A stretch of DNA of 64,000 nt from an uncultured Candidatus Saccharibacteria bacterium (lineage in GTDB: Bacteria > Patescibacteriota > Minisyncoccia > Phycocordibacterales > G965230995), in contig OZ246398.1 of assembly GCA_965230995.1 (NCBI GenBank), positions 656,213 through 720,212 on the forward strand. The letters run 5' to 3'. How positions within the stretch are numbered: the first letter of the stretch is position 1; each line of letters starts with the position of its first letter. Shown one piece after another: positions 16,593 to 57,598 of this stretch. The translations under genes were made by a program, and so were the position numbers. Below the pieces are notes generated by a model that saw only the letters and a list, made by a program, of their open reading frames with translations, was not told the DNA's origin and did not search any database.

Positions 16593-17876
16593 TTACGCTT
16601 TGAAAGCTTTTTTTCCTGCAAAGGTTGCTTTTTTGCCAAGGTATTCTTCGATTCGAAGCAATTTATTGTATTTTGCAACGCGATCACTTCGAGATAGTGA
16701 TCCTGTCTTTATCTGACCTGTTCCAAGACCAACAACGACATCAGCAATAGTTGAATCTTCTGTTTCGCCTGATCTATGAGAAACGATTGATGTATAGCCA
16801 GCTTTTTTTGCCATATTTATCGCATCAATAGTTTCTGTTACTGTTCCAATTTGATTTAATTTTATCAAAATTGAATTTCCAGCCTTGATTGAAATACCTT
16901 TTGCTAGTCTTTCTGTATTTGTTACAAACAAATCATCTCCAACAATTTGGACTTTCTTTCCGAGTTTCTTTGTCATCAAAATATATCCATCCCAATCGTC
17001 TTCGTGTAGAGGGTCTTCTATTGATAGGATTGGATATTTAGATACCCAGGCTTCATACATAGATATCATTTCTTCGCTTGAGAGAACTTTGTTTTCACAA
17101 ACTAGATGATATTTTCCATCTTTGTATAATTCGCTTGCCGCAGCATCTATTGCAATTCCGATATCTTTTCCTGGAACATATCCGGCTTTTGTGATTGCTT
17201 CGATAATTAATTCAAGAGCACCTTCGTTTGAAGTAAGTGATGGTGCAAAACCACCTTCATCACCAACAGTTGTAGCAAAACCTTTTTCTTTTAGAATTTT
17301 CTTTAGAGTGTGAAATACATCTGTACCCCACATCAAGGCTTCGCTAAAAGTCTTGGCACCAGCAGGCATTATCATAAATTCTTGCAAATCTGTTGATTTG
17401 TCTGCGTGTTTTCCTCCGTTTAGGATATTCATCATTGGGACAGGAAGTCTCATTTCATAGCCAGTCTTTCCAATTTGTTTAAAATATTTTGCCAAAGGAA
17501 CTTTTTTTGATTGACTTGTTGCTTTTGCAAAAGCCAAAGAAACACCGAGAATTGCATTTGCTCCTAATTTGCCTTTGTTGTTTGTTCCATCTAATTCAAT
17601 CATTGCCATATCGATTGTTTTTTGCGTCCATTCTTTGCCTTTTATCAATTTTGAAATGACTGTATTTATATTTGAAACAGCGTTCAAAACACCTTTTCCG
17701 CCGTATCTCTTTCCACCATCTCGAAGCTCAACAGCTTCGTGACTTCCAGTTGAAGCGCCAGATGGCACAGATGCCCTACCAAAGCTTCCATCCGCAAGTG
17801 TTATTTCAACCTCGACTGTAGGATTACCTCGCGAATCCAAAATCTCTCTTCCCCATACTTTTTTTATTTTTGACAT
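16593..17876 (-). CDS. eno: enolase
   Basis: 427 aa. [13 protein letters not shown] and [13 protein letters not shown] motifs. Confidence 0.95.
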
Positions 17877-17929
17877 AATTTTTCTATTTATTGGGCTATT
17901 CTATCATAATTTTATATTGTTAAAAGTAT

Positions 17930-17985
17930 TTGATTTTTTTATAGAACTGTTGTATAGTAATAATAGGTTCGAAACAGTTCCTAAT
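17930..17985 (+). promoter_or_regulatory. promoter of island B gene (TTGATT-17-TGTATAGT) bracketed by 8-bp inverted repeat GAACTGTT / AACAGTTC; predicted transcript starts at ATAGGTTCGAAAC
   Basis: -35 at 17930-35 and extended -10 at 17951-58. The inverted repeat at 17944-51 and 17972-79 flanks the -10/TSS region. Confidence 0.5.
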
Positions 17986-18011
17986 CGGCAATCAATTTAG
18001 CGAGGTGTGTA

Positions 18012-18383
18012 ATGGACGCTGACAGACCTGGAATAGTGATCACCACCAGGGCAGACATCTCTCAGTTCGAGTTCCTGCGTCTGGTTCAGGATGGGTTGCT
18101 CAGATTCATCTGCGAACACGACGATTTAGAGGGGCAGTTCGTAGCCGTGGAGATTAATCTCTCCGACAGTAACCTGCCCGCACGTGGTGAGGGCATCGAG
18201 GCAGAAATCAAGTTCATCTTCTGCTACGACCGGATGACGAGCTTTCCGAGGTATCACCGCTTCTCAATCAACATGGGGAAGCAATTCCTTGAATCGGATA
18301 ACGTTCGCATGATCCACTCGGAGTTCCTTGACAACAGGGACAGCATCACCGTCAAGGCACGTATGGCACTTGCACAACAGTAA
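18012..18383 (+). CDS. hypothetical protein (123 aa) in GC-rich island B
   Basis: About 52% GC ORF with GAGGTG Shine-Dalgarno, own promoter and own terminator. No recognisable domain. Confidence 0.55.
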   Translation: MDADRPGIVITTRADISQFEFLRLVQDGLLRFICEHDDLEGQFVAVEINLSDSNLPARGEGIEAEIKFIFCYDRMTSFPRYHRFSINMGKQFLESDNVRMIHSEFLDNRDSITVKARMALAQQ

Positions 18384-18398
18384 CCGACACAGGAGGAT

Positions 18399-18428
18399 GG
18401 GCGCGTAAAGCTTGACGCGCCTTTTTTG
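18399..18428 (+). terminator. rho-independent terminator of island B gene (GGCGCGT-aaagcttga-CGCGCC plus TTTTTT)
   Basis: GC-rich hairpin plus T6. Confidence 0.75.
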
Positions 18429-18519
18429 ATACAAAAATCCCTATACAGCAAAGAGTTTTTATGATATATTTCTTACTCAATAGAAATATGGGCTGAAAGG
18501 TCTTTTTTAAATAGAATTT

Positions 18520-20319
18520 ATGGAAATCAGAAATATTGCAATTATCGCTCACGTTGACCACGGAAAAACAACCCTAACCGACGCGCTTTTGCGACAAAAC
18601 GGAATGGTAGAAGAGGGAGTCTCTATGGATAGCAATGATCTTGAAAGAGAGCGAGGTATTACAATCTACGCAAAAAATACATCTCTATATTACAAAGGAA
18701 CAAAGATTAACATAGTAGACACACCCGGTCACGCCGATTTTGGTTCAGAGGTAGAGCGTGTTTTGCGATCTATCGATACAGTTCTCCTCGTTGTTGATGC
18801 CCAAGAAGGACCAATGCCTCAGACAAGATTTGTTTTGAAAAAATCTCTCGAACTTGGACTCAAACCTATTGTTGTTATAAACAAAATAGACAAGCCCGCT
18901 TCTGACCCTATCAAAACACACAATTCAGTACTTGAACTATTTTTTGATCTTGGTGCTAACGAAGACCAGGTTAATTTTACAACAGTATATGCAATTGGCC
19001 GTGATGGAATTGCAAAAAGAAAATTAGAGGATGCAAATGAAAATCTCAATCCTCTTTTGGATGTTGTACTCGAAGAAGTCAAACCAAGCCTACCAGATGA
19101 AAAAGAAACTGGTATTGCACAGGTATTCAATCTTGCTTACGACAATTTTCTAGGACGTATGGCTATTTGCAGAGTCTATAAAGGCAACATAAAAATTGGT
19201 GACCCAGTGTTCGTTTTGCATCCAGGCAAAGAAAGCTACAAGGGTAAACTTACAAAAATATTTTCTTTTGAAAATATAAACCGAAAAGAAACTGATATTG
19301 CACAGAACGGAGATATTGTAATGATTGCTGGTTTACCTGAAATTTACATCGGTGACAGTATTGCAACACACGAAGGTGATTCTCCCCTTCCTTCTATTGC
19401 AGTAGACGAACCAACAATTTCTCTAAACTTTTTGGTTAACGATTCACCTTTTGCCGGACGAGAAGGAACTTATGTTACCGGTAGACAAATTCGCGACAGA
19501 CTAGAGAAAGAAATGGAAGTCAACGTTGGTTTGAAAGTGGATTTTTCAAGATCAGATTATTACACAGTCTACGGACGTGGTGAACTTCATATTGCAATCC
19601 TCCTCGAAAATATGCGAAGAGAAGGCTTCGAGGTTCAAGTATCTCAACCTCATGTTGTTTTCAAAATTGAAGACGGTATCAAAAAAGAACCTTTTGAAGA
19701 AGTAATCGTCGATGTACCTGAAGCGGTTTCTGGTGGAATAATCGAAAAATTGAACCTACGAAAAGGTTTGATGATGCATATGGAAACAGAAGGTGGACGA
19801 GTAAAAATGATTTACAATGTCCCAACAAGAGGTCTTTTGGGTTTCCGAGGACAATTCATAGTCGATACTAGAGGCGAAGGAATCCTATCTTCTAGATTTC
19901 TAGAATTCAGAGAATATGCAGGAGAAATAACTCGAACTCTCTACGGTTCAATGATATCTATGGAAAACGGAAAATGCCTCGCATTTGCTTTGGACAACCT
20001 ACAAAAAAGAGGGCTTCTATTTGTTGAACCTGGAAACCAAGTCTACGAAGGACAAGTAGTTGGTAGCGTCACAAAAGGTGATGATTTGTATGTAAACCCA
20101 ACAAAAGGAAAGCAACTTACAAATATGCGAGCTTCTGGTTCAGACGATGGAATATTCCTCGTCCCTGCATTTAAACTGGATATTGAAAGAGCAATGGAAA
20201 CAATGTCAGACGATGAATATATAGAAATCACTCCGGAATCAGTCAGACTTAGAAAAGTCTTTCTCACAAAATCAGCCCGCGACAAAGCCGGCAGGACCAC
20301 TCACAAAGCTGGAGAATAA
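18520..20319 (+). CDS. typA: translational GTPase TypA/BipA
   Basis: AHVDHGKTTL G1 motif, DTPGHADF. 599 aa with the BipA-type C-terminus. Confidence 0.9.
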   Translation: MEIRNIAIIAHVDHGKTTLTDALLRQNGMVEEGVSMDSNDLERERGITIYAKNTSLYYKGTKINIVDTPGHADFGSEVERVLRSIDTVLLVVDAQEGPMPQTRFVLKKSLELGLKPIVVINKIDKPASDPIKTHNSVLELFFDLGANEDQVNFTTVYAIGRDGIAKRKLEDANENLNPLLDVVLEEVKPSLPDEKETGIAQVFNLAYDNFLGRMAICRVYKGNIKIGDPVFVLHPGKESYKGKLTKIFSFENINRKETDIAQNGDIVMIAGLPEIYIGDSIATHEGDSPLPSIAVDEPTISLNFLVNDSPFAGREGTYVTGRQIRDRLEKEMEVNVGLKVDFSRSDYYTVYGRGELHIAILLENMRREGFEVQVSQPHVVFKIEDGIKKEPFEEVIVDVPEAVSGGIIEKLNLRKGLMMHMETEGGRVKMIYNVPTRGLLGFRGQFIVDTRGEGILSSRFLEFREYAGEITRTLYGSMISMENGKCLAFALDNLQKRGLLFVEPGNQVYEGQVVGSVTKGDDLYVNPTKGKQLTNMRASGSDDGIFLVPAFKLDIERAMETMSDDEYIEITPESVRLRKVFLTKSARDKAGRTTHKAGE

Positions 20320-20323
20320 TTTT

Positions 20324-20352
20324 AAAAAACACCCGCTCGGGTGTTTTTTAAT
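20324..20352. terminator. rho-independent terminator after typA (ACACCCGCTCGGGTGT plus T-run)
   Basis: Hairpin plus TTTTTT. Confidence 0.7.
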
Positions 20353-20579
20353 AAAGTTTACAAGATAATTATTTTTGATATATTGAAGAACAGCCAATTG
20401 AACCTTTCGTGGAGTCTGTGTTGTGGAAAGCCAAAAGAAACAAGGTTTTTTCAGTGCGAACCTGACCGAGATTCTCATCGCGACTCTGATGCTGGTGATA
20501 GCAATCACCGTTGCGTTCTCAAACCTAGTCGCACAAAAATAGGAGACCCCGCCACCCAAGAAGAGGTGGCTTGTTCGTA

Positions 20580-21308
20580 TCAACCGATTTTTGTCCTAGT
20601 TATATTTAAAGCAAAAGCTTCACTACCAATTGATTTTCCAAGATCGTTTGCATAAGCTCTAACATAAAAACCTGAGCCAACATTCAATCTCATTTTAATA
20701 ATCGGGAAAGACTCAAAATTTGTAGTACCAAAAAAATCTTTCCATCTATCCAATATTTCTTTTTGTCTAAAATCACCCGAGACAGTTGATATTTTTCTAT
20801 ATATCTCTTTCTCTAATTCGCTACTATCAATTTCCCCTATTGATAATATTTCTGCAGAATAAACAGTGACCTTGTGAGAAGGCAAAATAACGTCACTGTT
20901 TTCCCTTGCGTGATTGTGCAACTGAATTCCGTTTACTGTTTTAGAAGAATATAACGGATATTTTTGTTCTATTTCCCCAATATTTTTTTGTACAAATTTT
21001 TCAATTTTTTCTTCAAAATCTTTTTTAATATTTGCTTCATTTAGAACCAGACCAAGAGGATCAAAGGTGTCTGTGCCAATACCCAAAACAATATCAGTTT
21101 CGTATGTCTTTGGAAGAATAGTAAATTCATTTTTTCTATGTACCATTTCACCCGAAAGTATAATCATTTCACCTTGTGCCAATGGATCAAGACGCCCAGC
21201 GTAAGTCATTTTTATGTCTTTGTATTCTGGTTTTTCAGATCTAATTCTATTTATGACCTGTAGAGGAGTCTCGCCTTCTTTTTTCCAAATCCTGATTACA
21301 TTTTCCAT
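20580..21308 (-). CDS. truB: tRNA pseudouridine(55) synthase TruB (short, no PUA domain)
   Basis: AGRLDPLAQG catalytic Asp motif and KTYETDIVLGIGTDTFDPLG motif typical of TruB. Confidence 0.7.
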   Translation of the reverse strand: MENVIRIWKKEGETPLQVINRIRSEKPEYKDIKMTYAGRLDPLAQGEMIILSGEMVHRKNEFTILPKTYETDIVLGIGTDTFDPLGLVLNEANIKKDFEEKIEKFVQKNIGEIEQKYPLYSSKTVNGIQLHNHARENSDVILPSHKVTVYSAEILSIGEIDSSELEKEIYRKISTVSGDFRQKEILDRWKDFFGTTNFESFPIIKMRLNVGSGFYVRAYANDLGKSIGSEAFALNITRTKIG

Positions 21309-28011: not shown

Positions 28012-29253
28012 TTAGTAACCTCGTAGTCTATCAATCTTTTCGTGCTGTCTGATTTTTTCGTGGGCCTTTGCTTCGATTTGTCTGATTCGCTCTCTTGTAA
28101 CACCAAATTCCTTGCCGACTTCTTCTAGTGTGTGTGTTATACCATCAACCAAACCGTGTCGCATTTCGAGAATTCTTCTCTCTTTTGGAGGTAGATCATC
28201 GAGTATTTCACGCACTTGATCTGAAATAATTCTTCTTGATGTTTCCTGATCTGGAGAAAGTATTTTATCGTCAGCAACAAAGTCTCCTAGTGTACTCTTT
28301 CCATCATCACCATCGTCTCCAACAGGACTTTCAAGAGAAACTGTACTTTGATCAATTTTTTCTATTTGATAAACCTTGTCTACTTCTAGATTCATCTCGA
28401 TAGCAATTTCTTCTGGTAGAGGATCTCTGCCCAAATCTTGCGAAAGTCTTCTAACGACCTGTTTATATTTTGCAATTGTTTCAACCATATGCACCGGTAC
28501 TCTAATTGTTCGTGACTGATCTGCTAGAGCTCTTGTGATAGCCTGTCTAATCCACCAAGTTGCATAAGTAGAGAATTTGTAACCTTTTGTCCAATCGAAT
28601 TTATCTACGGCTTTAAACAAACCGAGATTTCCTTCTTGGATTAGGTCGAGCAAAGTCAAATCAGGTGATCTTCCTACATATTTTTTAGCAATAGAAACTA
28701 CCAATCTAAGGTTAGATCTTGCGAGCAAATTTTTTGCCTCTGTATCACCAGCTTCTATTCTCCTTGCAAGTTCTTTTTCTTGAGCACCAGAAATCAACGG
28801 GTACTGACCTATTTCCTTTAGATACATTTGGATTGAATCGTATGAACTATCAGCACCTTTGTTGTACTGATATTTTTTTGACATCAACCCTTCTTCTGGA
28901 TTTTCATCAAGAAGACTTCCCCCTTCTAGAATATCTATTCCAGCATCTGCTATTTTTTCGTAGAGTTCATCGAGAAAGATTATATCGTCTTCGATATGAG
29001 GAAATTCCTTGAGAATTTCATCATAGGTAATAAAGCCCCTCTCCTTTCCTTTTTGAAGAAGTTTTTTTGTCTTGTCTTCTATTTGTTTTGCTCTTTCCTT
29101 TGAAGAAAGTTTTGGTTCTTTTACTTCTGTTTTTGGTTCAGATTTTATGAAATGTTTTACGGCCTTTTTGACTTTACTTTTGTTTTTTTCTACCTTCTTT
29201 GCTGGTTTTTTACTTGAAACCTTTGTTTTTGGAGTTTTTTTCTTTTGAGGCAT
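28012..29253 (-). CDS. rpoD: RNA polymerase sigma-70 factor RpoD
   Basis: Regions 2-4 conserved (DLIQEGNLGLFKAVDKFD, TYATWWIRQAI, EEVGKEFGVTRERIRQIE). Confidence 0.95.
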   Translation of the reverse strand: MPQKKKTPKTKVSSKKPAKKVEKNKSKVKKAVKHFIKSEPKTEVKEPKLSSKERAKQIEDKTKKLLQKGKERGFITYDEILKEFPHIEDDIIFLDELYEKIADAGIDILEGGSLLDENPEEGLMSKKYQYNKGADSSYDSIQMYLKEIGQYPLISGAQEKELARRIEAGDTEAKNLLARSNLRLVVSIAKKYVGRSPDLTLLDLIQEGNLGLFKAVDKFDWTKGYKFSTYATWWIRQAITRALADQSRTIRVPVHMVETIAKYKQVVRRLSQDLGRDPLPEEIAIEMNLEVDKVYQIEKIDQSTVSLESPVGDDGDDGKSTLGDFVADDKILSPDQETSRRIISDQVREILDDLPPKERRILEMRHGLVDGITHTLEEVGKEFGVTRERIRQIEAKAHEKIRQHEKIDRLRGY

Positions 29254-41997: not shown

Positions 41998-42500
41998 ACC
42001 GATTAAAAACAGAAAAGCCCGACACGATAATCAGACTAATCTGTTCCGTGTACGGACTTGTGCTACTTCTCCTGACTGCTGGAACGGGTCGCACGACCGA
42101 AATCTGTGGCGAAAAGCTCCTTGATATACTTTTCGTGTTTCATCCAGAATTCGATATTCCGTTCGAGCTCGGTACGAACTCGGCTGGGCGCAAGCATACC
42201 CCGCAAGACAACTGCCCGATTGAGACACTCGTCGTAGTTGAGGAACTTTTGCCCCTCATCACGCGCCGAGAACCTCATCTCTACTTTGCCCTTCTTCTTC
42301 AACATAATCCTCGCAATGCCACACTTTTTGCTGAATTGCGACAGGACTTGAGAGAAGATCGCGTTGTTCAGAGCAAGAGCAACCTCGTCTCGAGCGCTGC
42401 GGCATGACTTTCGAGTCATGTGAACCCCCAAAAAATCTAAGAACTGAGAATCGAAGTTTCGAACCTATTTATAAATGATAATCAAAAAAATATTTACAGC
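41998..42500. other. GC-rich island C (single-gene foreign-composition cassette between convergent rnr and smc)
   Basis: About 55% GC. Own promoter, leader motif ATAGGTTCGAAAC and terminator-like hairpin. Confidence 0.65.
42063..42419 (-). CDS. hypothetical protein (about 118 aa) in GC-rich island C
   Basis: ATG at 42419 (the ORF track's extra 4 codons start at a TTG). GGGGG Shine-Dalgarno upstream. The plus-strand 119-aa ORF is judged a shadow ORF. Confidence 0.5.
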   Translation of the reverse strand: MTRKSCRSARDEVALALNNAIFSQVLSQFSKKCGIARIMLKKKGKVEMRFSARDEGQKFLNYDECLNRAVVLRGMLAPSRVRTELERNIEFWMKHEKYIKELFATDFGRATRSSSQEK

Positions 42501-48465: not shown

Positions 48466-48882
48466 TCACTTGCTGGCAAGAAGCCAGAGAGCGATGAACC
48501 CGGCGAGAATTCCTGCGACCTTGCGGACCGTGAGTTCACCACTCATCACCATGTGGTAGACTGCCGGAACGGCAAACTGTACCACAAGCATGATGAGGAA
48601 GTACTTCCCGATTTCCGCTTGACTCGCCTTGGCACAGATGGTGTTAAGTGCCAGGACGCCAATCGCCCCGATGAGTCCTGCCAGCAACGCGATGAGGAAC
48701 GATCCTTTATCGTGTGCGACAGTCTGACCAAAGAGGGGTAGCGTAAACCCTACAACAAACGCAATTGTCATCGCCCACAACCACGAGGCGAACGGGCCCG
48801 AAAGCCCAGAGCGACTCATCACTAAGGGCCAGGCTGCGAAAGACAGACCAGTCACAACAGCGAGGATGTAGTACCGCATCAA
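48466..48882 (-). CDS. small 4-TM membrane protein (SMR/DMT-like architecture) in GC-rich island D
   Basis: 138 aa with four hydrophobic helices. AGGAG Shine-Dalgarno. Confidence 0.55.
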   Translation of the reverse strand: MMRYYILAVVTGLSFAAWPLVMSRSGLSGPFASWLWAMTIAFVVGFTLPLFGQTVAHDKGSFLIALLAGLIGAIGVLALNTICAKASQAEIGKYFLIMLVVQFAVPAVYHMVMSGELTVRKVAGILAGFIALWLLASK

Positions 48883-57044: not shown

Positions 57045-57598
57045 GAAAGGCTTTACATTATTGACTGATGTGGTACAATAGAGAACCAGAAGCAAGGCTA
57101 CATGCTCACTCGGGTATGGTCTTGTTTAGAAAATTCTTTTTTTGAGAGGGCTACAAAATGGCCAAAAAAAAATCAGAGCCACTGGCAGTACAGAGGATGA
57201 AAACCTTCGTAGGAAGGTTTCCCGTCCTGGTCTCAAGCCGTGAAAAGCTCTCGGAGCTTCGGGTCCTCCAGTTGGTACGCCAGTCCTTGCTGGCCCCCGG
57301 CAATGACACCGTCGACACCAGGACCATCGACGAACTGGTGGAGGAGGGTTTGTCCGTAGATGCCGCGTACAGGTCACTTTTGTACCCGACCGGTACGGGC
57401 TACGAAGTGGACGAGAAGCTGTTCAACAATTTCTACACCATCTACGGTGCGTTGAAGTTGATGAAGCGGCGCCCAGACATGTGTACCACCAGAACCTTCA
57501 GTGTGAAGAAGGTGGTAGCCTGAAGCATGGTCTAGCCACCCATGCAGGAGTAAGCCGCGCAATCCCCCGGGAAAGTGCGGCTTCAACGTTTATACTAG
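57045..57598. other. GC-rich island E (single-gene foreign-composition cassette between gyrB and pheT)
   Basis: About 55% GC. Promoter TTTACA-16-TGgTACAAT. Confidence 0.6.
57158..57523 (+). CDS. hypothetical protein (121 aa) in GC-rich island E
   Basis: ORF with GAGAGG Shine-Dalgarno. Minus-strand ORFs here are judged shadow ORFs. No recognisable domain. Confidence 0.5.
   Translation: MAKKKSEPLAVQRMKTFVGRFPVLVSSREKLSELRVLQLVRQSLLAPGNDTVDTRTIDELVEEGLSVDAAYRSLLYPTGTGYEVDEKLFNNFYTIYGALKLMKRRPDMCTTRTFSVKKVVA

What the first reader, a model, noticed from the sequence alone, without database searches (positions are those of the whole stretch)
17930..18430. GC-rich island B: single 123-aa gene cassette with operator-like inverted repeat over its promoter
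A 0.5-kb cassette at about 52% GC lies between divergent eno and typA. It consists of promoter TTGATT-17-TGTATAGT, a 35-nt leader, a 123-aa ORF of unknown function and a strong GC hairpin plus T6 terminator. An 8-bp inverted repeat GAACTGTT/AACAGTTC brackets the -10/TSS. The predicted 5' end of the transcript is ATAGGTTCGAAAC, a motif shared with island C. Together these suggest an autonomous, possibly repressor-controlled, horizontally acquired gene.
Basis: partly seen in the sequence, partly recalled or inferred. Interest (0 to 1): 0.75.

Follow-up and report, generated by a model that had tools for sequence, protein, structure and literature searches.

The report
Fast-diverging GC-rich orphan gene cassette
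Between two housekeeping genes of a tiny AT-rich Patescibacteria (CPR) genome sits a real, self-contained 123-aa gene of unknown function; its coding part is unusually GC-rich and differs far more between close relatives than its conserved promoter, terminator and neighbours do.

Summary
ORF 18012..18383 has 52% GC and GC3 0.69, against 0.37 and 0.24-0.28 for its neighbours. It lies between divergent eno and typA and has a sigma-70-like promoter, a GAGG ribosome-binding site and a hairpin/T6 terminator. It is a protein gene: GC3>GC1>GC2, dN/dS is 0.27-0.52 across four orthologous loci, and there is no Rfam hit.

It is one of five such GC-rich orphan genes in the window. The other ~52 ORFs have GC3 of 0.20-0.34.

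In three close relatives the eno/typA flanks are 90-98% identical. The stretch from the leader (immediately after GGTTCGAAAC) to just before the terminator is only 32-45% identical in the most divergent pair. Cassette dS is 0.9-1.8 against 0.24-0.35 in the flanks. The alleles are therefore older than the strains and mosaic, so the gene is a long-term resident, not a recent import.

GGTTCGAAAC lies 7-10 nt after the -10 box. It is conserved at this locus (three of four loci) and at island C (both loci), and 0 of 2000 shuffles reach the shared word. The 8-bp "operator" inverted repeat fits chance (13% of shuffles) and is not conserved.

The family has four known members. No Pfam, PHROG, PADLOC, NCBIfam, PDB, phage or plasmid relative was found. 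AlphaFold confidence is low.

Best reading: a lineage-restricted accessory gene under diversifying selection. Why it stays GC-rich is unexplained.

The parts
17877..17929 (.). Conserved intergenic block shared with divergent eno; probably holds the eno promoter on the minus strand
   Evidence: Aligned and largely identical in window, L019, L021 and L041. Assigning it to the eno promoter is inference from the sequence (TGATAGAAT on the minus strand).
17930..17958 (+). Sigma-70-type promoter of the cassette: -35 TTGATT (17930-17935), 17-nt spacer, -10 TATAGT (17953-17958)
   Evidence: Consensus scan. The -10 box and surrounding TGTTGTATAGTA are conserved in all four orthologous loci, except TATGGT in L021. 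A primary sigma-70 gene is present at 28015-29253. No transcription start has been mapped.
17966..17975 (+). GGTTCGAAAC motif at or near the predicted transcription start; it marks the left edge of the hyper-divergent segment
   Evidence: Exact in window, L021 and L041/L058; GACTCGAAAC in L019. The same 10-mer lies at island C in the window (42456-42465, -) and in its orthologue L053. The shared 14-mer was reached by 0 of 2000 shuffles.
17944..17980 (.). 8-bp inverted repeat GAACTGTT (17944-17951) / AACAGTTC (17973-17980) proposed as an operator
   Evidence: Present, but 13% of shuffled promoters have one, and only 5-6 of 8 pairs remain in the orthologous loci. Most likely not a functional unit.
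18002..18007 (+). Ribosome-binding site GAGGTG; the GAGG core ends 6 nt before the ATG
   Evidence: Read from the sequence. TAGCGAGGT is conserved in window and L019, and as TAGTGAGGT in L021; L041 has AGGA instead.
18012..18383 (+). 123-aa protein-coding ORF: an orphan family with a predicted small cytoplasmic alpha+beta fold
   Evidence: GC1/GC2/GC3 = 0.53/0.34/0.69. dN/dS is 0.27-0.52 against three orthologues. Eleven columns are invariant, mostly hydrophobic core. Only P0002 was found among 1.84 billion representatives. No Pfam, PHROGs, PADLOC, NCBIfam or PDB hit. AF2 pLDDT is 49-54, topology b-a-b-b-b-a-a.
18399..18428 (+). Intrinsic terminator: hairpin GGGCGCG-TAAAGCTTGA-CGCGCC followed by T6
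   Evidence: -14.2 kcal/mol, z -3.1. The orthologous loci keep a hairpin with loop AAGCWTGA but different, complementary stems (GGGGCGC/GCGCCCC in L058; GGTGCACGC/GCGTGCACC in L019 and L021), followed by the conserved TTTTTGATA.
42063..42465 (-). Sister cassette C: motif 42456-42465 and 118-aa ORF 42419..42063, between smc and rnr
   Evidence: The orthologue downstream of smc in L053 has GTATAGTATTATAGGCTGGTTCGAAAC and a divergent ORF start. Its protein is unrelated to B.
6560..7645 (+). Sister cassette A: 361-aa GC-rich orphan with an N-terminal signal-peptide-like segment
   Evidence: GC3 0.78. Only itself found in the 5.8-billion-protein search. Own promoter-like region and 3' hairpins seen in the sequence.
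48466..48879 (-). Sister cassette D: 137-aa GC-rich membrane protein with a strong terminator
   Evidence: GC3 0.65. Hairpin -31.2 kcal/mol, z -6.5. Only sub-threshold DUF5904/PycTM hits.
57158..57523 (+). Sister cassette E: 121-aa GC-rich orphan
   Evidence: GC3 0.73. Hairpin -26.9 kcal/mol. Unrelated to B.

Best explanation
Island B is a real, self-contained protein gene: its own sigma-70-type promoter, a roughly 46-nt leader, a GAGG ribosome-binding site, a 123-aa ORF and an intrinsic terminator. It belongs to a clade of AT-rich, small-genome Patescibacteria (CPR).

It encodes a lineage-restricted orphan protein, probably a small cytoplasmic alpha+beta protein with no conserved catalytic motif.

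The locus behaves as a fixed scaffold carrying very old, highly divergent and partly mosaic alleles. The scaffold is the eno/typA flanks, the promoter, the GGTTCGAAAC start-site motif and the terminator. Alleles are most likely exchanged between strains by homologous recombination in the conserved flanks and kept diverse by diversifying (frequency-dependent) selection.

The motif GGTTCGAAAC lies at about +1 to +10. It is shared with the unrelated cassette C and most likely acts as a common cis-regulatory or start-site element. The flanking 8-bp inverted repeat is incidental.

Shown: coding, autonomy of the unit, allele hyper-divergence, motif conservation and a GC-rich composition in all alleles.

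Inferred: recombination as the exchange route, diversifying selection, a binding or conflict-type role for the protein, and a regulatory role for the motif. The reason for the persistent GC-richness is not explained.
For: Coding:
- GC3>GC1>GC2 in all four alleles.
- dN/dS is 0.27-0.52.
- The hydrophobic core is conserved, an RBS is present, and Rfam finds nothing even at E<=1.

Autonomy:
- The promoter and a terminator with covarying stems are conserved across window, L019, L021 and L041/L058.

Host:
- typA and smc relatives are Patescibacteria/Paceibacterota MAGs.
- The window's gene set is housekeeping, with no integrase, transposase or reverse transcriptase among the long ORFs read or scanned.

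Hyper-divergence:
- L021 vs L041 flanks are 90-98% identical, while the cassette is 32-45% identical with sharp edges.
- dS is 0.29-0.35 for eno and 0.24 for typA, against 0.87-1.77 for the cassette.
- L019 vs L021 is mosaic: about 80% identity in the 5' half, about 50% in the 3' half, then a near-identical terminator.

Restricted family:
- Only itself in the 5.8-billion-protein search, plus one hit among 1.84 billion representatives.
- Two more members were found only by synteny.

Motif.

The class is general in this clade:
- Five GC3-rich orphans in the window, with no genes of intermediate GC3.
- Extra GC-rich cassettes at other intergenic sites in L021 and L058.
Against: - No transcription start, transcript or protein has been observed. 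The promoter is a 9/12 consensus match only.
- dS in the cassette is at or near saturation and composition-biased, so the size of the excess over the flanks is rough.
- Only four alleles are available, so neither diversifying selection nor recombination breakpoints could be tested formally.
- Long residence in a genome with GC3 near 0.25 should have eroded a foreign GC3 of 0.5-0.7. This explanation does not say why it has not.
Confidence: 0.6

Rival explanations
1. One reading: a recently acquired, moron-like foreign gene whose promoter is controlled by a repressor bound to the GAACTGTT-N21-AACAGTTC inverted repeat.
For: - Composition is foreign-like, with its own promoter and terminator.
- The gene is absent from the eno-typA gap of more distant relatives L003, L004, L016 and L042.
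- One GC-richer cassette in a relative (L021, 5281..6054) is an ordinary YfbR-like enzyme, consistent with gene import.
Against: - Orthologous but 16-38% identical alleles occupy the same scaffold in L019, L021 and L041/L058, with saturated dS. Acquisition therefore predates these lineages.
- No donor homologue was found among 1.84 billion representatives, phages, plasmids or viral contigs.
- The inverted repeat fits chance (13% of shuffles) and is not conserved.
Confidence: 0.12
2. Locally targeted diversification: a mutational or conversion process confined to the transcription unit. Candidates are transcription-coupled hypermutation or GC-biased gene conversion at a recombination hotspot. 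Such a process would both speed up divergence and keep the unit GC-rich.
For: - Divergence begins at the predicted start site and ends before the terminator.
- Both dS and dN are raised relative to the flanks.
- All alleles and all sister cassettes stay GC3-rich, with no intermediates.
- Leaders are also somewhat GC-richer (0.37-0.46) than host intergenic DNA (0.32).
Against: - The L019/L021 mosaic has a roughly 50%-identical 3' ORF half followed by a near-identical 3' UTR and terminator. This fits swapped segments, not uniform mutation across the transcript.
- Third positions show no strong strand asymmetry, and the transition spectrum is like that of eno.
- No reverse transcriptase, template repeat or deaminase-like gene was seen in the window.
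- GC-biased conversion of this strength is not known in bacteria (own knowledge).
Confidence: 0.1
3. Site-specific cassette exchange: GGTTCGAAAC is the core of an attachment site where cassettes are swapped by a recombinase, like an integron but dispersed around the chromosome.
For: - The motif sits exactly at the left edge of variability. It is shared by the two unrelated cassettes B and C and conserved across species.
- It is a near-palindrome around TTCGAA.
- Neighbouring cassettes in relatives share 44-48-nt 3' hairpin modules.
Against: - The same protein family always occupies the same site: B at eno-typA, C at smc-rnr. Free cassette shuffling predicts otherwise.
- There is no copy or inverse of the motif at the right ends.
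- No integrase or recombinase was found among the window ORFs.
- Cassettes A, D and E, and those in L021 and L058, lack the motif.
Confidence: 0.06
4. Not a gene: a chance ORF in GC-rich DNA, a structured non-coding RNA, or an assembly chimera.
For: GC-rich DNA has few stop codons. Antisense ORFs of 40-69 aa also occur in the island.
Against: - Codon-position periodicity, dN/dS below 1, indels in multiples of three, and an RBS.
- No Rfam match, and the leader folds no better than shuffles, z = -0.08.
- Identical junctions appear in independent assemblies (one NCBI contig and two Logan runs), and orthologous junctions appear in JGI and ENA assemblies.
Confidence: 0.02

Closest known systems
Morons of lambdoid prophages (autonomous promoter-gene-terminator units with deviant base composition, inserted between conserved genes; own knowledge: Juhala et al. 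2000, Hendrix et al. 2000)
   Same: A single ORF with its own promoter and intrinsic terminator, wedged between two conserved genes. Base composition differs sharply from the flanks. The cargo is usually of unknown or accessory function.
   Different: - The flanks here are chromosomal housekeeping genes of a CPR bacterium, not phage genes, and no phage genes or phage relatives were found.
- The unit is an old, vertically retained locus with divergent alleles rather than a sporadic insertion.
Hypervariable or balanced-polymorphism loci exchanged by homologous recombination in conserved flanks (for example surface-antigen, restriction-specificity and immunity loci of naturally transformable bacteria; own knowledge)
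   Same: Near-identical flanks enclose alleles that are far older than the strains. Alleles are mosaic and the boundaries are sharp. dN/dS is below 1 but relaxed.
   Different: - The product is a small cytoplasmic orphan protein with no known partner.
- All alleles keep a composition very different from the genome, which is not typical of such loci.
Integron gene cassettes
   Same: Small single-ORF units of unknown function with conserved boundary elements. Neighbouring cassettes in relatives share 3' hairpin modules.
   Different: - Each unit has its own promoter.
- There is no intI-like integrase, and no attC-like site shared by the right ends.
- Cassettes are dispersed rather than arrayed, and the family at each site is constant.
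Diversity-generating retroelement (DGR) targets, which are common in CPR genomes
   Same: A localised, extreme sequence diversity in one gene of a CPR genome.
   Different: - The whole ORF and leader vary, not just a C-terminal variable region.
- No template repeat exists in the window, and no reverse transcriptase was seen.
- Substitutions are not adenine-specific.
HPF/RaiA (S30EA) ribosome hibernation factors
   Same: The predicted secondary-structure order b-a-b-b-b-a matches. HPF, pY and YfiA chains recur among weak fold hits.

Membership tests
Moron-like autonomous accessory gene | Own promoter upstream of a single ORF | tested here: inconclusive
   TTGATT-17-TATAGT is a 9/12 match and no commoner than in shuffles. 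It is conserved in four orthologous loci. No transcription start data.
Moron-like autonomous accessory gene | Own intrinsic terminator | tested here: met
   Hairpin plus T6, -14.2 kcal/mol, z -3.1. The stems covary among the orthologous loci.
Moron-like autonomous accessory gene | Base composition unlike the flanking genes | tested here: met
   GC 0.52 vs 0.37; GC3 0.69 vs 0.24-0.28; z = 4.4.
Moron-like autonomous accessory gene | Inserted between genes of a (pro)phage | tested here: not met
   The flanks are eno and typA. The window is housekeeping throughout. No PHROG, phage or viral-contig match.
Integron gene cassette | attC recombination site at the 3' end, and an intI integrase with attI nearby | tested here: not met
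   No integrase among the window ORFs read or scanned. The 3' ends of A-E share no element. The cassette has its own promoter.
DGR variable-region target | Template repeat about 90% identical to the variable region, a nearby reverse transcriptase, and adenine-specific differences | tested here: not met
   No second copy of any part of the island in 64 kb. No reverse transcriptase seen. The substitution spectrum is transition-dominated, as in eno. The rest of the 743-kb genome was not available.
Toxin-antitoxin or immunity pair | An adjacent partner gene in the same operon | tested here: not met
   A single ORF lies between promoter and terminator. The other ORFs in the island are antisense, 40-69 aa, and lack support. 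No PADLOC hit.
Repressor-controlled promoter (palindromic operator) | An inverted repeat overlapping the promoter that exceeds chance and is conserved | tested here: not met
   An 8-bp inverted repeat occurs in 13% of shuffled promoters. Only 5-6 of 8 pairs are kept in L019, L021 and L041.
Structured non-coding RNA | Match to a known family, or a fold more stable than shuffles | tested here: not met
   Rfam gathering and E<=1 scans found nothing. Leader z = -0.08. The coding signals are strong.
HPF/RaiA (S30EA) family | Sequence match to PF02482 or a confident structural superposition | tested here: not met

The most novel reading that the evidence does not exclude
The GC-rich cassettes are a distinct, actively maintained gene class of this Patescibacteria clade, making up about 9% of the genes in this window. 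The class would be marked by its own codon usage and, for some members, a shared start-site motif (GGTTCGAAAC). A dedicated process would keep it both GC-rich and hyper-diverse. Candidates are GC-biased conversion or targeted diversification tied to the transcription unit, motif-directed cassette exchange, or tuning of these genes for expression in, or against, a GC-richer host cell.
Probability: 0.12. Interest if true: 0.8.

Novelty: new variant of a known kind. Interest (0 to 1): 0.5.

Why it matters
CPR/Patescibacteria are ultra-small episymbionts. Most of their accessory genes are uncharacterised, and how they interact with hosts and phages is largely unknown.

This locus shows that a streamlined genome of about 743 kb keeps single-gene slots between core genes, on fixed promoter/terminator scaffolds. 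These slots hold very old, very divergent alleles of orphan proteins. That pattern usually marks genes engaged in conflict or recognition.

Two points would interest specialists if they hold genome-wide:
- Gene composition is strictly bimodal (GC3 about 0.25 or about 0.7, with nothing between), and this persists across anciently diverged alleles. That contradicts simple amelioration of foreign DNA.
- A 10-nt start-site motif is shared by unrelated cassettes, which hints at a small regulon or a common module.

Both points can be tested directly with existing metagenomes and metatranscriptomes.

Tried and rejected
- **Structured RNA.** I first suspected one, because GC-rich islands in AT-rich genomes often are. 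Rfam gathering and E<=1 scans and ARAGORN found nothing in the island, and the coding signals are strong.
- **Exact DNA-pattern scan.** A scan of metagenome contigs for the conserved promoter (TATTGTTAAAAGT-N19-23-TGTATAGTAAT) returned nothing. The typA-based scan was what retrieved close relatives.
- **Relatedness of cassette proteins.** Profile comparison showed that the B, C and E proteins are unrelated.
- **Eno look-up.** I tried to find other contigs carrying the relatives' exact eno proteins, to catch more alleles.
- **Terminator covariation.** RNAalifold on the four terminators failed because MAFFT misaligned the stems. Two of my single-sequence folds (L019, L021) used coordinates that cut off the 5' arm. 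For these two, the hairpins are read directly from the sequence.
- **Other motif readings.** I considered a tRNA T-arm remnant or att site, a CRISPR-repeat-like 5' handle, an ECF-sigma promoter and an archaeal TATA box. I rejected all four from the sequence: no flanking stems, no repeat array, the upstream GAAC is not conserved, and the TATA-like run is not conserved.
- **Literature.** Searches found general reports of horizontal transfer in Patescibacteria and a hypervariable repeat gene in a Gracilibacterium, but no description of this pattern.
Full report
**What is in the sequence**

The window averages 37% GC. The stretch 17954-18467 rises to 49-55% GC. It contains one long ORF, 18012..18383 (+), 123 aa. 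This ORF lies between enolase (16593..17876, -) and typA/bipA (18520..20319, +), which are transcribed divergently.

The ORF has 51.9% GC. Windows of 372 nt outside the five GC-rich islands have mean 36.5%, sd 3.5% and never exceed 47%, giving z = 4.4.

The surrounding signals are as follows.
- Promoter: upstream are TTGATT (17930-17935), a 17-nt spacer and TATAGT (17953-17958). This is a 9/12 consensus match that is not rarer than chance on its own.
- Ribosome-binding site: GAGGTG, with the GAGG core ending 6 nt before the ATG.
- Terminator: downstream is the hairpin GGGCGCG...CGCGCC followed by T6 (18399-18428; -14.2 kcal/mol, z -3.1).
- Inverted repeat: GAACTGTT / AACAGTTC (17944-17951 / 17973-17980) is present.
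- Shared 13-mer: ATAGGTTCGAAAC occurs exactly twice in the window, at 17963 (+) and 42456 (-).

The one small correction is that the leader would be about 46-49 nt, not 35.

**Gene or not**

It is a protein gene.
- GC by codon position is 0.53/0.34/0.69, the pattern of real genes from GC-richer genomes. eno, typA, gpmI, truB, hisS and pheT have GC3 of 0.23-0.28.
- Rfam finds nothing here at the gathering threshold or at E<=1.
- The leader folds no better than shuffles.
- Orthologues exist (see below), with dN/dS of 0.27-0.52 and in-frame indels.

**The island is not unique**

The window holds five such units:

| Unit | Coordinates | Product | GC3 |
|---|---|---|---|
| A | 6560..7645 (+) | 361 aa, signal-peptide-like N-terminus | 0.78 |
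| B | 18012..18383 (+) | 123 aa (this finding) | 0.69 |
| C | 42419..42063 (-) | 118 aa | 0.64 |
| D | 48879..48466 (-) | 137 aa, membrane protein | 0.65 |
| E | 57158..57523 (+) | 121 aa | 0.73 |

Each is a single ORF with a promoter-like region, an RBS and a strong 3' hairpin. All the other roughly 52 long ORFs have GC3 of 0.20-0.34, and nothing lies in between.

The other genes are core functions: ATP synthase, rpoB/C, rpoD, dnaG, dnaE, smc, rnr, rnc, gyrB, thrS, pheST and others. No integrase, transposase or reverse transcriptase appeared among the ORFs I read or scanned.

The cassette proteins are not related to one another. None hits Pfam, PHROGs, PADLOC or NCBIfam above noise. Their codon usage is far from the host's: Lys AAG 0.67 vs 0.19, and Ile ATC 0.64 vs 0.17. 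Their leaders are mildly GC-richer (0.37-0.46) than host intergenic DNA (mean 0.32).

**Host**

typA and smc relatives are Patescibacteria (Paceibacterota, 'Saccharibacteria'-labelled and Parcubacteria MAGs). The best genome match has 72% typA identity. The B protein lies on an NCBI contig of 742,714 bp and on contigs from two Logan runs, with identical junctions. This rules out a chimera.

**Relatives of the protein**

The word-indexed search of 5.8 billion proteins found only the protein itself. An exhaustive phmmer search against 1.84 billion representatives added one protein, P0002 (129 aa, 37% identity, E 1.4e-7).

P0002 lies at the same locus: eno N-terminus, the same promoter, ORF, hairpin/T-run (L019, L020).

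A typA-based metagenome scan recovered two more close relatives. Both come from the same JGI sample as L019.
- L021: typA 91% and eno 84% amino-acid identity to the window. It carries a 124-aa allele.
- L041/L058: typA 90% and eno 84%. It carries a 132-aa allele that is only 16% identical to B, yet alignable: VVKVE..., FTFFYNPLTGEP.

More distant relatives keep the divergent eno/typA arrangement but have AT-rich small membrane ORFs in the gap instead (L003, L004, L016, L042). L022 has a different upstream context. No match was found in phages, plasmids or viral contigs.

**The key comparative result**

Between L021 and L041, eno is about 93% and typA about 97% identical at the DNA level, and the promoter is 87-97% identical. 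From just after GGTTCGAAAC to just before the terminator, identity drops to 32-45%. It then returns to 83-100%.

Among the three close relatives, synonymous divergence is 0.29-0.35 in eno and 0.24 in typA, but 0.87-1.77 in the cassette. Even fully neutral evolution at the flank rate could not produce about 20% amino-acid identity. The alleles are therefore older than the strains that carry them.

L019 vs L021 is mosaic: about 80% identity in the leader and 5' half, about 50% in the 3' half, then a nearly identical terminator. This fits exchange of allele segments by recombination better than uniform hypermutation of the transcript.

The terminators are homologous. They share the loop AAGCWTGA and the trailing TTTTTGATA but have different, complementary stems.

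All four alleles remain GC3-rich (0.50-0.69) in genomes whose flanking genes have GC3 of 0.24-0.30.

**The motif and the inverted repeat**

GGTTCGAAAC lies 7 nt after the -10 box in the window, L021 and L041. It reads GACTCGAAAC in L019. It is the last conserved element before the divergent segment.

The same 10-mer precedes island C, 9 nt after a TATCAT -10 box. It also precedes the island C orthologue downstream of smc in L053, where the promoter reads GTATAGTATTATAGGCTGGTTCGAAAC. That closely resembles B's GTATAGTAATAATAGGTTCGAAAC.

Among the five cassettes' 70-nt upstream regions, the 14-nt word shared by B and C was never reached in 2000 shuffles (maximum 13). The motif is absent from A, D and E and from the extra cassettes in relatives.

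By contrast, a perfect 8-bp inverted repeat arises in 13% of shuffled promoters. It is kept at only 5-6 of 8 pairs in the orthologous loci, and in L041 its right arm lies in unalignable sequence. I therefore regard the 'operator' as unsupported. The start-site motif is a real element shared by B and C, but its function is unknown.

**The wider pattern in the clade**

- L021 has two further GC-richer genes (GC3 0.62 and 0.49) between typA and truB. The window and L058 have only about 260 bp there.
- L058 has two further GC-richer genes (GC3 0.64 and 0.47) next to gpmI.
- Neighbouring cassettes share 44-48-nt 3' hairpin modules.
- One of the L021 genes is a YfbR-like HD 5'-deoxynucleotidase (Pfam E 1e-9). 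At least part of this class therefore consists of ordinary imported genes.
- The smc-rnr gap is also variable in more distant relatives.

**Protein**

AlphaFold2 with two- and three-sequence alignments gave low confidence (pLDDT 49 and 53.5). Both models show the order b-a-b-b-b-a(-a).

The invariant columns are mostly hydrophobic core. There is no conserved catalytic constellation: the EHD triplet is missing in L041. This fits a binding protein with a fast-evolving surface.

**Interpretation**

The best-supported account is as follows. Island B is an autonomous, lineage-restricted accessory gene held on a fixed scaffold between two core genes. Its alleles are ancient, highly divergent and mosaic. 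They are most simply explained by homologous exchange in the conserved flanks under diversifying selection.

The composition is foreign-like, so the original gene was probably imported. That import predates the split of the lineages sampled here.

Two things remain unexplained:
- why all alleles and all sister cassettes stay GC-rich, with no intermediates, in a genome whose GC3 is about 0.25;
- what the protein does.

I assign about 0.6 to the core account. Within it, I assign roughly 0.25-0.3 to a conflict or recognition role (immunity or inhibitor-like).

The rivals are less likely but not excluded with four alleles and one 64-kb window. They are a recent moron with an operator, transcript-confined diversification or GC-biased conversion, and motif-directed cassette exchange.

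**Novelty and score**

Atypical-composition accessory genes, moron-like units and hypervariable loci are all known kinds. New here is the combination:
- a CPR genome;
- dispersed single-gene slots between core genes;
- conserved promoter/terminator scaffolds;
- persistent GC-rich composition across anciently diverged alleles;
- a start-site motif shared by unrelated cassettes.

I found no description of this pattern in the literature I searched. I rate it a new variant of a known kind, with interest 0.5.

Noticed in passing
window 4727-5113 (minus strand): The group I intron (4779-5071, Rfam 65 bits) interrupts a tRNA gene in the anticodon-loop region. The 5' half is TCCGCGATAGCTCAGCTGGTAGAGCGGTCGCCTGTAAAC. 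The 3' half is ...GCGATTGGTCGTAGGTTCGAGCCCTACTCGCGGAGCCA. The anticodon is probably GTA (Tyr). ARAGORN reported no tRNA anywhere in the window.
   Followed up: partly
window ~4515-4530 (minus strand): A second copy of the tRNA 3' end (CCCTACTCGCGGAGCC) lies about 200 nt downstream of the intron-containing tRNA. It could be an att-like direct repeat or a tRNA remnant.
   Followed up: no
window ~4635-4660 (minus strand); L022 2130-2230: The element TGTTTGATTTATCAAACAAGAAGTGC occurs once in the window. It occurs three times in tandem upstream of typA in the relative L022. It appears to be a small repeated element shared between lineages.
   Followed up: no
window 6560-7645, 42063-42419, 48466-48879, 57158-57523: Four further GC-rich single-gene orphan cassettes (A, C, D, E) have GC3 of 0.64-0.78. 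Each has its own promoter-like region and strong 3' hairpin. A has a signal-peptide-like N-terminus and D is a multi-pass membrane protein. C and D share the -10 region TTATCATTTA.
   Followed up: partly
window ~20398-20520 (+): A small transmembrane-peptide ORF (...KKQGFFSANLTEILIATLMLVIAITVAFSNLVAQK) lies between typA and truB in a local GC bump (0.48). A homologous peptide is encoded in L021. The 104-aa ORF listed there (20341..20655) is probably spurious.
   Followed up: partly
window ~18490-18510; L021 ~2147-2166; L041 ~2103-2122; L022 ~2358-2378: A small hairpin plus T-run (GGGCTGAAAGGTCTTTTTT) is conserved immediately upstream of the typA start codon in all relatives examined. It may be a leader or attenuator element.
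   Followed up: no
L021 1975-2075; L041 1925-2025; L019 885-931: A long inverted-repeat element of about 120 nt (AGAGAGAATACCTCCTGAGGCAATACTTTTGCC ... GGCAAGTATTGA.GAG.GAGCGTATTCTCTCT) sits between the B terminator and the typA promoter in the three close relatives. It is absent from the window.
   Followed up: no
L021 4088-6054; L058 327-1304: Relatives carry additional GC-richer cassettes at other intergenic sites. In L021 these are a 286-aa orphan and a YfbR-like HD 5'-deoxynucleotidase between typA and truB. In L058 they are 145-aa and 137-aa orphans next to gpmI. Neighbours share 44-48-nt 3' hairpin modules.
   Followed up: partly
window 5110-5330 (minus strand): The short ORF next to the intron-containing tRNA reads like a small GIY-YIG-type nuclease (…KIYIGQTADIDLRMLQHRNK…). 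This is judged by eye only.
   Followed up: no
L056 4314-4820: In a more distant relative, the site downstream of smc holds an IS200/IS605-type (Y1) transposase-like ORF preceded by a long perfect palindrome. This is judged by eye only.
   Followed up: no
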